From positions 1 to 14,869 of the forward strand of contig JAYGCN010000042.1 in NCBI GenBank assembly GCA_046583315.1: a stretch of 14,869 bases of DNA, in the 5' to 3' direction. A program made the translations under genes and the position numbers. This DNA is from Candidatus Hydrogenedentota bacterium. Its GTDB lineage: Bacteria; Hydrogenedentota; Hydrogenedentia; Hydrogenedentales; GCA-2746185. Below the pieces are notes generated by a model. The model was not told the DNA's origin. It did not search any database and saw only the letters and a list, made by a program, of their open reading frames with translations. Positions 1,343 through 11,300 of this stretch are shown one piece after another (position 1 is the stretch's first letter; every line of letters begins with the position of its first letter).

Positions 1343-3013
1343 GTGAGATACATATTGCACATTGCGCTCGTCGCCGTATTCACCGTCATTACGAGCGCAA
1401 ATTCCCAAGAACTCCCGGAGTGGACTGATCCAAAACCACTCAACACAAATGCGGAGGTCGATTCGCGATCTGACCGTGAGCAACGAGTCATTCTCGACTC
1501 CCAAGGAAATGGCGTTGCCGTATGGCCTGGTGGTACTCGTGGACAAACAGTACTGTATGCAACGTATGCCGTCGAAAGCGATTCTTGGTCCTCCCCCACG
1601 TGGATATATACGCACAACCAATCGGATATTCAAGGGGATTCCTCTGTGTCGCTTGCTACCGACAACCAAGGTACGTGGATAGCAGTTTGGACATCCCAAT
1701 ACGGTATCAACAATACCTCAGACCTATCTAATTACATATTGTATTCCTTATACGATTTCGAAAATGATGAGTGGAGTACCCCCTCGCACGTCGCTCCCGA
1801 TACGGGGAGTGTTATCGGTTATCATCATTTTCCAAACATCGTCAGCGCGGGTCAAGGGATTTGGATGGCGACCTGGACGACGCTGGACTACAACGTAGCA
1901 AACGATGAAAACATTTCTTATTCACTGTTTGACATCGACACCGGACAATGGTCAACGACCAAACCGCTCAACTCAGATACGACAACAAATCGAGGCGACG
2001 ATTCGGATATCAGGGTCGCAACAGACGGACATGGCGAATTGCTCGCTGTCTGGAGAAATTACCGGCGCTTTTTTGGGGGGGCCGAAGAATTTAAGATTAG
2101 TTACGCTACCTTTGATGCTGGACTCGATTCCTGGTCTGTCCCAAAGACTCTTGCGCAGATGAGTGGTAGGGGATTTTCGCCCGAAGTCTCTACAGACGGA
2201 CTTGGGAATTGGATATCTGTGTGGACATCCGACGAGCCAATGGATAATGTGCTTCAAGATGTTCGCTACGCAACATACGACGTACCAAACGATACGTGGA
2301 GCTCCTCGATGCCACTCAATACGGATTCGGAACTTGCCCAGAGCAGCTTTGAAGATAGGCCACACATCGCCGCCGATGACCAAGGCAACTGGATGGCAGT
2401 ATGGTCGTCAGAAAATCGTTCTGCGGAAATAGTAGACTTCGATGAAGTCATCTTGTTTTCCATGTATGATGTCCAAACCGATTCATGGACTGCGCCAAAT
2501 CCAGTGAACAACGATTTCGATGGTGATGTCGTAAGAAATCGTTCTCCGAGAGTCGCCACCGACGGAAATGGCAATTGGCTAATCAGTTGGGCGGCAATTA
2601 ATACTCGTTATTATGATGGCGACTCGGATTTATTCTATGCCAGAACGCCGAAAACCAGTTTCGGCGGTAGCGGAAGCGGAAGCGTCTGCTTCATCGCGAC
2701 GGCTGCATACGGCACTCCGCTAGCTGGCGAAATCACCGTATTGAGAGAATTTCGCGATGCGCGACTATTGAACAATGGAGTTGGCACGGCGTTCGTGGAT
2801 ACTTACTACCGCTTGAGTCCACCGCTTGCAGGCATCGTAAGTCGATACCCGGCGGTGGCCAATCTTGTACGCACGGCCTTGGCACCATTGATCGCGATTA
2901 TCTCGATTGGGTCATCAGCATTAGTATCGATTTCGCTCGGTGCCGCGTTACTTTTCGGCATGCACCTCCGACGAAGAGGCGCTTACCGATTGAAAACGAA
3001 TTCTACTCAGTGA
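1343..3013 (+). CDS. Secreted, membrane-anchored repeat protein (probable 7-bladed beta-propeller) with a C-terminal CFI-box-CTERM domain
   Basis: GTG start with RBS GAGGGA; signal peptide; seven D-x-x-G-x-W-x-x-x-W-like repeats; GGSGSGS linker, then CFIATAAYG...LREFRD...FVDTYYRLSPPLA, a TM helix and a basic RRRG tail. Confidence 0.88.
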   Translation: MRYILHIALVAVFTVITSANSQELPEWTDPKPLNTNAEVDSRSDREQRVILDSQGNGVAVWPGGTRGQTVLYATYAVESDSWSSPTWIYTHNQSDIQGDSSVSLATDNQGTWIAVWTSQYGINNTSDLSNYILYSLYDFENDEWSTPSHVAPDTGSVIGYHHFPNIVSAGQGIWMATWTTLDYNVANDENISYSLFDIDTGQWSTTKPLNSDTTTNRGDDSDIRVATDGHGELLAVWRNYRRFFGGAEEFKISYATFDAGLDSWSVPKTLAQMSGRGFSPEVSTDGLGNWISVWTSDEPMDNVLQDVRYATYDVPNDTWSSSMPLNTDSELAQSSFEDRPHIAADDQGNWMAVWSSENRSAEIVDFDEVILFSMYDVQTDSWTAPNPVNNDFDGDVVRNRSPRVATDGNGNWLISWAAINTRYYDGDSDLFYARTPKTSFGGSGSGSVCFIATAAYGTPLAGEITVLREFRDARLLNNGVGTAFVDTYYRLSPPLAGIVSRYPAVANLVRTALAPLIAIISIGSSALVSISLGAALLFGMHLRRRGAYRLKTNSTQ

Positions 3014-3605
3014 CCTCTTTCACCAGCTTAATCAATTCCTCAGTCGCATGACGTTCCTGATAGCGTTCGAGGAAGATTTTGGCAAGTATTGTGCCGTCTT
3101 CCGAGAGTATGTAGGTTCCCGGAAACGGGATGCCCGACAGATCGTTCTTGCCAAACTTCTTGCCCTCCATCGCGTCATTACGAATACCGAAGGCATCGAT
3201 GGTTTTGCTGCCTTCGTCGGAAAGCAACGGGTAACCCAGTTCATTCCGTTCCGAGAATTTCTTAAGCACTTCAATCGAGTCGTAACTGATCGCGACCACG
3301 TTGATGTCGGCTTTTTTGAGGGCTTTCGCGTCGGTGTGCAACTGGACCAGCTGCTTCTTGCAGTACGGTCACCAATTCGCCGAGCGATGGAAGACCAGCG
3401 CGGTGGTGCCGTCCTTTGCGAGCAGGGATGTTAAGGAGACCTCTTCCCCATCCTGATTTTTCAGCGTGAAGTCCGAGACTTTCTCGCCCACGGCCAGTCC
3501 GGTCATCTCATCGGGAGCAGCTTCGCCCGCCGCAGAACTCCCTGATGCTACCATAATCGCCATCCCCAGTAGTGAAAGCGTCAAAAACATTTTCAGTTTG
3601 CGCAT
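3003..3605 (-). CDS. Exported AhpC/TSA (peroxiredoxin-like, thioredoxin-fold) selenoprotein, about 200 aa, Sec encoded by TGA at 3369-3371
   Basis: ORFs 3369..3623 and 3003..3341 are in the same frame and joined across one TGA: ...VGEKVSDFTLKNQDGEEVSL...ALVFHRSANW-U-PYCKKQLVQL...VVAISYDS...YPLLSDEGSKTIDAFGI...PFPGTYIL. ATG at 3605 has RBS GAAGGA and begins a signal peptide. Confidence 0.88.
3338..3368 (-). other. Putative bacterial SECIS element just downstream of the UGA
   Basis: mRNA after UGA: CCGUACUGCAAGAA-GCAGCUG-GUC-CAGUUGC. This gives a 7-bp stem (one G-U pair) with a G-initiated apical loop 22 nt after the UGA, similar to the GGUC-capped fdhF SECIS. Confidence 0.65.
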
Positions 3606-3682
3606 CGAAGGTTTCCTTCTCACGGTTAACTTCTATTGATTGTCATGCGTCGCACCCAGCATAGACTGGAATCGCTCAATAG

Positions 3683-4507
3683 TCAAGGCGATTCAACCAC
3701 GGACACGCGTAGATTGTATAGTGAACGCTTTCCGGAGGATTTTTCTTCCACGGACAACGATAAAATTCCTTCGCTCACATCTTCGCCTTTGTATTTGGGT
3801 CGAAACGTGATCTTTTCAGCGGAAATTTCCGCTATCCACGGGCCGCCAGTGCCTGGGAAGAAACGTGGGCTTTCGGTCGAATTAGCAAATGACAAGCCCC
3901 CGGCAGGCGTGATTTCGATCAACTCGGGAGAATCCTTCTTCCAGGTCACTTTCACAAATCGACCAGGAATATCCATCGGTTTCCATACGGTCCTTTGTCG
4001 CAAAAACAGGCTCGAATCCCAGGCAACTCGGGACTGCGCATGCACAGGAATCTCCAGACTCAGCTCCGCATCCTCAGGAATACACACGCCATCATCCAGG
4101 CACAGTAGCCAGTGGACCTTTGCGCGAATCGTCAGAGTATCTCCGTCCGACATCGACTTCGGGATAGCGATCCTCGAAAAGAGCAGCACTTGATCCGTGT
4201 ATCCGAAATACGATTCATCCAGCCCCTCTATTTCAAACTGTTTCGGCACGGGCCATTGCAAATCCCCCACTTCAAGCGCGTCACCCACGGACCACTCCAC
4301 ACCCGTCGCAAGACCCGACTCCCCCGGATTGCGCCAATAAATATGCGAACGAGGCGGCAGATCAAACAGCACACCCACCTGAATCGTCACGCCCGGTTCA
4401 GCCCTCTCCACATTGGACACCAACTTGGTCGAGACGTTATTTTCTGAGTGCGCGGCCATCGAAAACATTAGTAACGCTATACAAGTTAATAAAATCGATT
4501 TGAGCAT
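3683..4507 (-). CDS. Stand-alone DsbD N-terminal-like (protein-disulfide reductase) domain protein, secreted
   Basis: HIYWRNPGESGLAT motif, WPVP, FGY and WLLC-LDDGV-CIPE cysteine pair; signal peptide from ATG at 4507 (RBS GAAGGGG). Confidence 0.82.
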   Translation of the reverse strand: MLKSILLTCIALLMFSMAAHSENNVSTKLVSNVERAEPGVTIQVGVLFDLPPRSHIYWRNPGESGLATGVEWSVGDALEVGDLQWPVPKQFEIEGLDESYFGYTDQVLLFSRIAIPKSMSDGDTLTIRAKVHWLLCLDDGVCIPEDAELSLEIPVHAQSRVAWDSSLFLRQRTVWKPMDIPGRFVKVTWKKDSPELIEITPAGGLSFANSTESPRFFPGTGGPWIAEISAEKITFRPKYKGEDVSEGILSLSVEEKSSGKRSLYNLRVSVVESP

Positions 4508-9806: not shown

Positions 9807-10164
9807 GAATAGCGCGCGCCACATTGTTTTCCTGGAAATGAATATTCCCCATCCCCGATGGTACTATCCCCGTACAGTACCATCAGCCATTGACACTGCG
9901 GAACACACATGATCAAACGAATCCTCAAATGGACATTCCGATTCGCCGTAGTCGCCCTGCTCATCCTGATTGCGATCACCACAAACTCCTGGTACGGATA
10001 CCGACAAGCCCAAGCCGACTTCCGTGCACTGGGATACCCCACTACGATGGAAGAACTTCGCGCATGGGACGCTGTGGACGATCCAGCCGAGAATGCCGCA
10101 ATCCCTATTCAAGAAGCAATGAACAAAATGACGTGGGAATTCCCCGAAGACCTACAACTCCCGG

Positions 10165-10210
10165 TTTCCAGCGACTGTTGTTGGCGTTTTCCAGCGACTG
10201 TTGTTGGCGT
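10165..10210 (+). repeat. Perfect 23-nt tandem duplication
   Basis: TTTCCAGCGACTGTTGTTGGCGT at 10165-10187 and 10188-10210. Confidence 0.97.
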
Positions 10211-10760
10211 AATGACTACTACGGCACCTACCCACCCGAAATCCTCGCTGACATCAAAATCATGCTTGATGCCAATCAGGAAAGTCTTCGAATCCTCCAC
10301 GACTCGCGGCACCTTGAGAAGTATCGCCCCAAAGTCACAAACGGCTATATCGATTTCGACCGCTATAGGGTTCATTCAAGCTACCGGGAAACTGCGCGAT
10401 ATTTGACTGAAGAAGCCCATTATTACGCTGGAGTTGGGCAGATGGATGAAGCCATCGACTCCATCGAAACCACTTTGTGGTTAAGTAAAATGATTTCACA
10501 ATATCCAGAGATAATCAGCGCGCTCGTCGCTGAAGCGATTCGTGGTATCGGCTTCGGAACCACACGAGAAATGATCAAAAGATATGAAGTTACCGATCTC
10601 CAGTTGCAACGACTACTCGATATCAACGAACCGTCGCTTGTAAATTTATACTTTCAACGAAACGTGCTCGGAGACTACGTGATGACGGGAGATTACTTTT
10701 CCTTGGGAAAGAAACTTATTCTGCTCACGGACGAGTTGAGCACAGATTCGTTTTTCAAAA

Positions 10761-10787
10761 TTGTCCTGAACGTTGTCCTGAACGTTG
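10761..10787 (+). repeat. In-frame 12-nt tandem duplication
   Basis: TTGTCCTGAACG x2 plus TTG; encodes ...IVLNVVLNV... Confidence 0.9.
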
Positions 10788-11300
10788 AAACCTATAAATT
10801 TGTATTTACTCCGTTAACTACAACCTACGTTTCCAATCAACAATTTCATGCGGAAGGAACTCAGCAATATCTCACCTTCATAGAATCAGAATTCTTCTCA
10901 TCAGCTGAAGAGGGGACCCTTATCTCGGGCGAGCCTCCGTTTCCACCAAATCATGAATTTTCCGTTCGCGAGTCAATCGACAGCCTTAGAAAAATGAAAT
11001 CTTTCCCCTTCCAGCACCGTGCTCGTACCACCGTCCTTCGCGCTGGCCTCCAGATCGAACAATACCGCCGCAGGCACGGCGCGCTACCTGAATCTCTGGA
11101 CGACCTTGTCCCGGAATTCACCAAGTCGATTCCCATGGACGCGATGACCGGCGAAGCACTCCACTATACCATCACCGACGACGGTTACGAAGTCTACTCC
11201 CTCGGCCAGAATCTGGAAGACGATCACGGCTCCCTGGACGAGGAAGGCGATCCAATACACGAACACGTCGAATTCCAGCGCGTACTCAACTAAAGTACTT

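What the first reader, a model, noticed from the sequence alone, without database searches (positions are those of the whole stretch)
3003..3605. Hidden exported selenoprotein: peroxiredoxin-like protein with a U-P-Y-C redox motif and SECIS hairpin
Seen: two same-frame ORFs separated by one TGA (3369-3371) that sits exactly at the first Cys position of a thioredoxin-fold W-C-P-Y-C motif. A GCAGCUG-GUC-CAGUUGC hairpin follows, with its loop 22 nt after the UGA. TGG is used for Trp and TGA ends other genes here (3013, 3683), so this is not a genome-wide code change. Established: bacterial Sec insertion needs an in-frame UGA plus a 3' SECIS bound by SelB, and UxxC AhpC/TSA-like selenoproteins are known. 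Inference: this is an intact, signal-peptide-bearing selenoprotein that standard annotation would split or call a pseudogene.
Basis: partly seen in the sequence, partly recalled or inferred. Interest (0 to 1): 0.82.

Follow-up and report, generated by a model that had tools for sequence, protein, structure and literature searches.

The report
Exported UxxC selenoprotein beside ScsB-alpha-like gene
A gene that databases cut in two at an in-frame TGA very likely encodes one selenocysteine-containing redox protein, predicted to be exported, of a family already catalogued in ocean metagenomes in 2008, so it is real but ordinary.

Summary
Window 3605→3003 (−) is one 200-codon frame with a single TGA (3371-3369) at the first Cys column of W-U-P-Y-C. 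The genome has selA, selB, selD and tRNA-Sec. Close orthologues occur in 8 of 135 genomes of the phylum; all 8 have the TGA and selA (base rate 29 of 135). The hairpin is unremarkable alone, but lies at the same place in 10 of 10 TGA copies, with compensatory changes, and in 0 of 23 more distant Cys controls. It is not a true peroxiredoxin: no PxxxTxxC, no catalytic Arg. It belongs to the published 'Prx-like 1' (PF00578, UxxC) selenoproteins; the 2008 GOS dataset lists a read matching 19 of 21 active-site residues. This scan noted the same type twice before, in other genomes. Added here: a stand-alone DsbD_N (ScsB-alpha-like) gene lies upstream in 5 of 7 informative loci, and two Sec paralogues are fused to DsbD_N, which suggests a periplasmic electron relay (inferred, untested). 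New member of a known kind; low interest.

The parts
3003..3605 (-). Gene for a 200-aa AhpC/TSA-fold (PF00578) UxxC selenoprotein, ATG 3605, TAG 3005-3003
   Evidence: PF00578 104.6 bits, cut-off 26; model pLDDT 90
3369..3371 (-). In-frame TGA = predicted Sec79, first position of W-U-P-Y-C
3338..3354 (-). bSECIS-type hairpin, 7-bp stem, GUC loop at 3347-3345
   Evidence: model criteria from PMC13188914
3531..3605 (-). Predicted signal peptide (about residues 1-25: basic start, hydrophobic core, small-residue end; no lipobox Cys)
   Evidence: sequence; hydropathy maximum 2.39 at residue 10 against 1.25 in the mature part; 97 of 104 full-length homologues have a similar N-terminal hydrophobic stretch; no signal-peptide predictor was run
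3612..3620 (-). Shine-Dalgarno-like GAGAAGGAA upstream of ATG 3605, favouring it over GTG 3623
   Evidence: sequence read by eye
3683..4507 (-). Stand-alone DsbD_N (PF11412) protein with invariant C136-x5-C142; ScsB-alpha-like; likely redox partner, 77 nt upstream

Best explanation
The two ORFs are one reading frame whose in-frame UGA is very likely decoded as selenocysteine, giving a predicted exported thioredoxin-fold thiol-disulfide oxidoreductase (U79-P-Y-C82) that would likely be kept reduced by the ScsB-alpha-like protein encoded just upstream. Shown: one frame, the TGA at the conserved Cys column, a conserved G-loop hairpin 21 nt downstream, and selA/selB/selC/selD in the genome. From established knowledge: SelB binds such a hairpin and delivers Sec-tRNA(Sec) to the UGA (PMC13188914). 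Inferred: the signal peptide takes the protein across the inner membrane. The selenolate at the start of helix 80-91 attacks a disulfide or oxidised cysteine in an envelope substrate, and Cys82 resolves it to a Se-S bond. The C-x5-C motif of the neighbouring DsbD_N protein reduces that bond, with electrons from the genome's membrane DsbD-type transporter (contig C303). The substrate is unknown. Odds by step: Sec gene about 0.97; exported about 0.9; relay with the neighbour about 0.6.
For: Sec machinery over curated cut-offs: selA 576 bits, selB 329, selD 268, tRNA-Sec 78; ARAGORN finds one tRNA-SeC(tca) and one tRNA-Trp(cca). Column 79 in the 120 listed homologues (of 254 found): Cys 102, Trp 3, and 15 fragments that start just after it, among them the closest hits at 64-77% identity. 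The 8 of 135 phylum genomes with a close orthologue (E ≤ 1e-64) all show one TGA; it is at column 79 in each. All 8 have selA, against 29 of 135 overall; G008, 97% complete, has a TGC homologue and no selA match. Hairpin: the six outer pairs are kept in 10 of 10 TGA copies and 0 of 23 Cys controls; best G-loop hairpin −8.0 to −11.6 kcal/mol in TGA copies, while 1 of 23 controls reaches −7.5, at another position. Three of 7 pairs change on both sides, 95.7% of cells pair, and slid controls give 10-40%. It meets all four bSECIS criteria quoted in PMC13188914. Partner: DsbD_N gene directly upstream in 5 of 8 orthologue loci, 1 of the 8 being cut by a contig end; the same two domain types are fused in two TGA-bearing paralogues of this genome (C272, C94) and in Cys homologues P0103 and P0115; a DsbD-type membrane protein is present. 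PMC3322552 shows that ScsB keeps periplasmic TlpA, PrxL and ScsC reduced and that ScsB-alpha occurs as a separate protein.
Against: No expression or protein evidence. The hairpin in the window alone is weak, and over 60 nt a competing fold that includes part of the UGA is the minimum. The stem lies on Q-L-x-x-L codons, which tend to be self-complementary: 4-11% of synonymous draws give the six pairs. The 10 copies are related, so the covariation counts are not independent, and the Cys controls are only 24-42% identical to the query. The innermost pair is broken in 3 of 10 copies. The DsbD_N neighbour is missing upstream in 2 informative loci (G002, G007). The stand-alone neighbour and the fused DsbD_N domain are only 20% identical, so the fusion links domain types, not orthologues. 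No NCBIfam equivalog passes its cut-off.
Confidence: 0.7

Rival explanations
1. The same selenoprotein acts as a direct peroxide scavenger in the envelope, using the selenolate (glutathione-peroxidase-like chemistry), rather than as a disulfide reductase.
For: The nearest solved folds are BCP/PrxQ/AhpE peroxiredoxins, ahead of ResA. R74, S75 and R185 are invariant or nearly so and could activate a peroxide. Periplasmic peroxidases fed by ScsB exist (PprX, PMC3322552).
Against: The PxxxTxxC motif and the catalytic Arg that PMC3322552 calls absolutely conserved are absent: the Thr place holds U/C, and the Arg place holds Pro or His, Gly or Ala. Another Prx-like ScsB substrate, PrxL, had no detectable peroxidase activity. 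The genome has a separate predicted exported TGGU-type Prx (C163).
Confidence: 0.15
2. Electron flow is the reverse: the selenoprotein is a free gamma-like carrier that takes electrons from a membrane CcdA/DsbD and hands them to the stand-alone ScsB-alpha-like protein.
For: PMC3322552 proposes that exported thioredoxin-like proteins replace ScsB-gamma where ScsB-alpha is separate. Adjacency and fusion do not give direction.
Against: The one DsbD_TM match in this genome already carries its own C-terminal WCKNC thioredoxin domain.
Confidence: 0.12
3. The TGA is a real stop or an error: a pseudogene, or two small proteins.
For: Databases hold the halves separately. In-frame nonsense codons do occur in this family: a Cys homologue in G428 has a TAG six codons after the first Cys.
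Against: The same TGA at the same column in 8 genomes at 48-63% identity and in two paralogues, with intact frames on both sides; co-occurrence with selA 8 of 8; conserved hairpin; other assemblies agree.
Confidence: 0.02
4. UGA is reassigned (Trp, Cys or Gly) in this organism.
For: Three database homologues were called with W at this column.
Against: TGA ends 349 of 1485 long stop-to-stop frames (some are shadow frames) and two window genes. The only UCA-anticodon tRNA found is tRNA-Sec. Trp next to W78 in place of an otherwise invariant Cys would remove the nucleophile.
Confidence: 0.01

Closest known systems
[quoted passage not shown]
   Same: Same Pfam family and motif. Dataset S1 under 'Prx-like 1' has read JCVI_READ_1092963671785, which matches 19 of 21 residues around the Sec (counted by eye) and resembles the rest of the C-terminal half. 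RSADWU occurs 13 times and RSAVWU 13 times in that file; one such read (JCVI_READ_900765) has a signal-peptide-like start and a C-terminal extension like the fused paralogues here.
   Different: A different lineage (close homologues of the neighbour are named Candidatus Hydrogenedentota). The link to a DsbD_N/ScsB-alpha-like gene was not found in print: 'DsbD' has 0 hits in the GOS main text, and searches gave no relevant paper.
Caulobacter ScsB substrates PrxL, TlpA and PprX (PMC3322552)
   Same: Exported Prx- or thioredoxin-fold proteins kept reduced by an ScsB/DsbD-type system; separate ScsB-alpha proteins are described.
   Different: Those use Cys, not Sec. PprX is a true PrxQ with PxxxTxxC and Arg; PrxL (cd02969) has distant cysteines, not an adjacent CxxC.
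BCP/PrxQ and AhpE peroxiredoxins (PDB 5epf, 2cx3, 1xxu)
   Same: Best structural matches: TM-score by target 0.80-0.89, 23-29% identity.
   Different: The peroxidatic Pro/Thr/Arg set is absent, and this protein has a signal peptide.
SelL-related redox protein (NF040769) and PrxU (NF040737)
   Same: Thioredoxin-fold bacterial (seleno)proteins with weak similarity.
   Different: Far below the cut-offs: 44 against 120 bits and 20.7 against 270 bits.

Membership tests
Bacterial selenoprotein gene | In-frame UGA aligned to a conserved Cys of homologues | tested here: met
Bacterial selenoprotein gene | bSECIS: 3-9 nt loop with G in the first two places, 4-16 bp stem, 16-37 nt spacing, ≤ −7.5 kcal/mol | tested here: met
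   3-nt GUC loop, 7 bp, 21 nt, −8.9 kcal/mol; criteria; bSECISearch itself was not available
Bacterial selenoprotein gene | selA, selB, selC, selD in the genome | tested here: met
Bacterial selenoprotein gene | Sec actually incorporated into the protein | not testable with these tools
   needs 75Se or mass spectrometry
Prx-like 1 / Prx-like thiol:disulfide oxidoreductase | PF00578 domain over its cut-off | tested here: met
   104.6 bits against 26
Prx-like 1 / Prx-like thiol:disulfide oxidoreductase | UxxC motif | tested here: met
   U79-P-Y-C82; motif
Prx-like 1 / Prx-like thiol:disulfide oxidoreductase | Close similarity to listed members | tested here: met
   19 of 21 active-site residues shared with a listed GOS member, compared by eye; no full alignment or tree with the published sequences was made
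Peroxiredoxin (BCP/PrxQ, AhpC, PrxU) | PxxxT/SxxC(U) active-site motif | tested here: not met
   F-x-R-S-A-x-W-C/U-x-x-C in 38 of 38 aligned rows; no Pro or Thr at those places
Peroxiredoxin (BCP/PrxQ, AhpC, PrxU) | Conserved catalytic Arg before the strand at 163-167 | tested here: not met
   columns 160-163 are P/A, H/Y/F, P/H, A/V/G; Arg in 3 of 38 at column 161
Peroxiredoxin (BCP/PrxQ, AhpC, PrxU) | NCBIfam equivalog score over cut-off | tested here: not met
   PRK09437 70.8 against 140; PrxU 20.7 against 270; AhpC 19.1 against 272
Stand-alone ScsB-alpha/DsbD-alpha (neighbour gene) | DsbD_N domain with two redox Cys and an export signal | tested here: met
   PF11412 63 bits against 25; C136 and C142 invariant in 31 rows; hydrophobic N-terminus read from the sequence
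Stand-alone ScsB-alpha/DsbD-alpha (neighbour gene) | ScsB-alpha class rather than DsbD-alpha | tested here: inconclusive
   only PDB match is 6c29 'putative metal resistance protein' (E 7e-14); that 6c29 is Proteus ScsB-alpha is recalled, and one search found no paper to confirm it
Stand-alone ScsB-alpha/DsbD-alpha (neighbour gene) | Electron transfer to the thioredoxin-fold partner | not testable with these tools
   needs redox-state assays

The most novel reading that the evidence does not exclude
A dedicated selenium-dependent reducing branch of the cell envelope: a free ScsB-alpha-like carrier paired with a Sec oxidoreductase (fused in two paralogues), in a marine Hydrogenedentota lineage with at least 14 candidate Sec genes of redox families, several with N-termini that look like export signals. 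Neither the pairing nor a selenoproteome of this phylum turned up in the literature searches run.
Probability: 0.4. Interest if true: 0.4.

Novelty: new member of a known kind. Interest (0 to 1): 0.2.

Why it matters
It corrects an annotation: databases hold the gene as a 78-aa and a 112-aa fragment, and the closest relatives are truncated the same way. 'Prx-like 1' is an abundant marine selenoprotein family, listed only as predicted (225 sequences in GOS). The conserved DsbD_N neighbour and the fusions give it a testable partner and place it in the envelope reducing pathway. This is a modest gain; a selenoprotein specialist would not be surprised by the gene itself.

Tried and rejected
The search for related loci in genome and metagenome collections returned almost only distant homologues; L008 served as a Cys control. 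A search of 351 genomes of another phylum for close Cys controls gave 1 match, so the hairpin control rests on distant homologues; 4 of 27 control loci were dropped because no Cys or stop aligned at column 79. Sequencing runs: no RNA holder listed. The first read lay-down cut its table of differences and was repeated on a short stretch. Promoter and terminator scans were at chance level (6 found against 3.7 ± 1.8), so co-transcription of the pair is not shown. No complex model of the pair was obtained, so binding is open. Two genome-wide TGA candidates (C278:2748, C220:9432) matched no family when read through and were rejected; C186:26138 also had no family hit and is left uncounted. The genome-wide TGA scans were noisy, and candidates were picked by eye. 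Literature: selenoprotein + Hydrogenedentes 0 papers; selenocysteine + ScsB + selenoprotein 0; selenoprotein + DsbD + periplasmic + signal peptide 1 unrelated review, listing only; 6C29 + ScsB 0. The BSepDB database described in PMC13326102 could not be queried and may already list this gene.

Full report
Observation. Under table 11 the region holds two same-frame ORFs on the minus strand, 3369-3623 and 3003-3341. With TGA read as Sec they are one frame; from ATG 3605 it gives 200 residues with a single recoded step, U79, in FHRSANW-U-PYC. A GAGAAGGAA element lies just upstream of that ATG. The protein scores 104.6 bits on PF00578 and 65.7 on PF08534 and passes no NCBIfam equivalog cut-off. 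TGA ends the genes at 3013 and 3683, and TGG is used in all 10 window genes checked. TGA ends 349 of 1485 long frames genome-wide. The exact-sequence look-up finds the 78-aa N-terminal half (NCBI) and the 112-aa C-terminal half (Logan) as separate database proteins.

Is the TGA real and conserved? Contigs of four runs from three studies cover the codon with no other letter listed there; X1 may be the source of the window, and one X5 contig matches 3340-3420 with zero differences. Of the 120 best homologues listed (254 found), 102 have Cys at column 79, 3 were called with Trp, and 15 are fragments that begin just downstream, including the most similar ones. In 135 genomes of the phylum, 8 carry a close orthologue (E ≤ 1e-64; next best 2.5e-48) and each has one TGA, at column 79. 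Two paralogues in this genome (C272, C94) have it too.

Machinery. The genome (96.7% complete, 5.4% contamination) has selA and selB in tandem on C271, and selD and tRNA-Sec on C299, all over curated cut-offs. ARAGORN finds tRNA-SeC(tca) and a single tRNA-Trp(cca). selA is found in 29 of 135 phylum genomes and in all 8 with the TGA orthologue. These genomes are kin (7 of 8 in one family), so this is a pattern and not a test. G008 has a TGC homologue and no selA match. Of 14 hand-picked in-frame TGA candidates elsewhere in the genome, 11 match redox families when read through, among them SelL-related, AhpD-CFYUT and UGSC over their cut-offs, and WAxxUGC (3), Trx7/PDZ and deiodinase-like below cut-off on partial sequences; 3 match nothing.

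SECIS. The hairpin has a 7-bp stem, a GUC loop, 21 nt spacing and −8.9 kcal/mol, which meets the bSECIS model as quoted in PMC13188914 (passages). Alone it is weak: z −1.95 on 31 nt, and on 60 nt a different fold is the minimum; 9.5% of synonymous recodings give the six outer pairs. Across the 10 TGA copies the six outer pairs are always kept, the loop starts with GU or GG, and 3 of 7 pairs change on both sides; the innermost pair is broken in 3 copies, giving a 5-nt loop. None of 23 Cys controls has the six pairs at that place and 1 of 23 has a comparable G-loop hairpin elsewhere, but the controls are distant (24-42%). The residue that supplies the loop G is Val or Gly in 10 of 10 TGA copies and in 11 of 11 Trp-called or truncated homologues that cover it, against Val in 19 of the Cys homologues, as expected if the RNA constrains the protein.

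What the protein is. The AlphaFold model (pLDDT 90, Sec modelled as Cys) is a thioredoxin fold with helix 80-91 starting at the motif and a low-confidence N-terminus. Its nearest solved structures are BCP/PrxQ/AhpE peroxiredoxins, then ResA. The peroxiredoxin catalytic set named in PMC3322552 (PxxxTxxC plus Arg; passages) is absent: the family has F-x-R-S-A-x-W-C-x-x-C and G-[VI]-P-x-P where peroxiredoxins have Arg. It is therefore Prx-like in fold and thioredoxin-like in motif. The N-terminus looks like a signal peptide without a lipobox, and 97 of 104 full-length homologues have a similar hydrophobic stretch; no predictor was run.

Partner and mechanism. The gene 77 nt upstream (3683-4507) is a stand-alone DsbD_N protein with invariant YWxNPG and C-x5-C motifs. 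Its only PDB match is 6c29, which I recall as the ScsB N-terminal domain of Proteus; I could not confirm this in print. It lies directly upstream in G000, G004, G006, G010 and G115, is not there in G002 and G007, and G005 is cut by the contig end. The two domain types are fused in the Sec paralogues on C272 and C94 and in Cys homologues, although the fused and free DsbD_N domains are only 20% identical. One DsbD-type membrane protein with its own thioredoxin domain is on C303. PMC3322552 shows ScsB-dependent reduction of periplasmic TlpA, PrxL and ScsC, no peroxidase activity for PrxL, and separate ScsB-alpha proteins in many bacteria (passages). The most likely working, all inferred: membrane DsbD → DsbD_N carrier → Se-S bond of this protein → oxidised envelope substrate. 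Rivals are direct peroxidase activity (0.15) and reverse flow (0.12).

Comparison with the literature. PMC13188914 and PMC9312934 (passages and table rows) list 'Prx-like thiol:disulfide oxidoreductase, PF00578, UxxC/UxxU' as a predicted selenoprotein family. PMC2398784 (passages) counts 225 'Prx-like 1' selenoproteins in GOS. Its Dataset S1 (searched for motifs) holds, between the 'Prx-like 1' and 'Prx-like 2' headers, a read sharing 19 of 21 residues around the Sec with this protein, plus reads with signal-peptide-like starts and C-terminal extensions. PMC13326102 (passages) describes a database that I could not query. Two earlier notes of this scan report the same type in other genomes and pointed to the name 'Prx-like 1', which I then checked in the paper. 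The searches for a Hydrogenedentes selenoproteome and for a selenoprotein-ScsB/DsbD link found nothing relevant; the library lacks most subscription papers, so this is weak.

Verdict. It is a new member of a known, predicted selenoprotein family and not a peroxiredoxin in the strict sense. The only element I did not find in print is the conserved pairing with a DsbD_N carrier. Interest 0.2.

Noticed in passing
genome G000: C9:4131, C17:2761, C46:33040, C77:6149, C94:800, C154:3793, C163:1591, C186:17962, C207:86996, C232:11382, C272:1845, C303:9791, C318:3965 (L062, L063, L167-L178): Thirteen further in-frame TGAs at catalytic positions of redox families (SelL-related, deiodinase-like, Trx7/PDZ, WAxxUGC x3, TGGU Prx, AhpD-CFYUT, UGSC, Prx-like x4), so at least 14 candidate selenoprotein genes with this one.
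   Followed up: partly
G000:C186:26138 (L176): In-frame TGA in LLFSPT-U-PAC with a G-loop hairpin (−8.5 kcal/mol, 22 nt spacing); thioredoxin-like by eye, but no Pfam or NCBIfam match on the stretch given. Possibly an uncatalogued UxxC selenoprotein.
   Followed up: partly
L004 (G000:C299:29879-33787): SelD is a 771-aa frame fused to an N-terminal FAD/NADH oxidoreductase, with a Cys (CAGC) motif; Ndh-SelD fusions are described in PMC2398784.
   Followed up: partly
window 10165-10210: A perfect 23-nt tandem duplication shifts the frame of one gene that starts at 9909 and continues in the 9890-11293 ORF; assembly artefact or recent mutation.
   Followed up: partly
L161 (G428:C86): A Cys-type homologue has an in-frame TAG at a Gln column six codons after the first Cys; probably a nonsense change or assembly error.
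   Followed up: partly
window 1343-3013: Repeat-rich exported protein with a CFI-box-CTERM sorting domain (NF041770); several other contigs carry the same domain. Its stop overlaps the end of the selenoprotein gene on the opposite strand.
   Followed up: no
G000:C46:31452-33040 (L166, L169): A second pairing of a selenoprotein gene (Trx7/PDZ) with a downstream, weakly DsbD_N-like gene (E 3e-4, under cut-off).
   Followed up: partly
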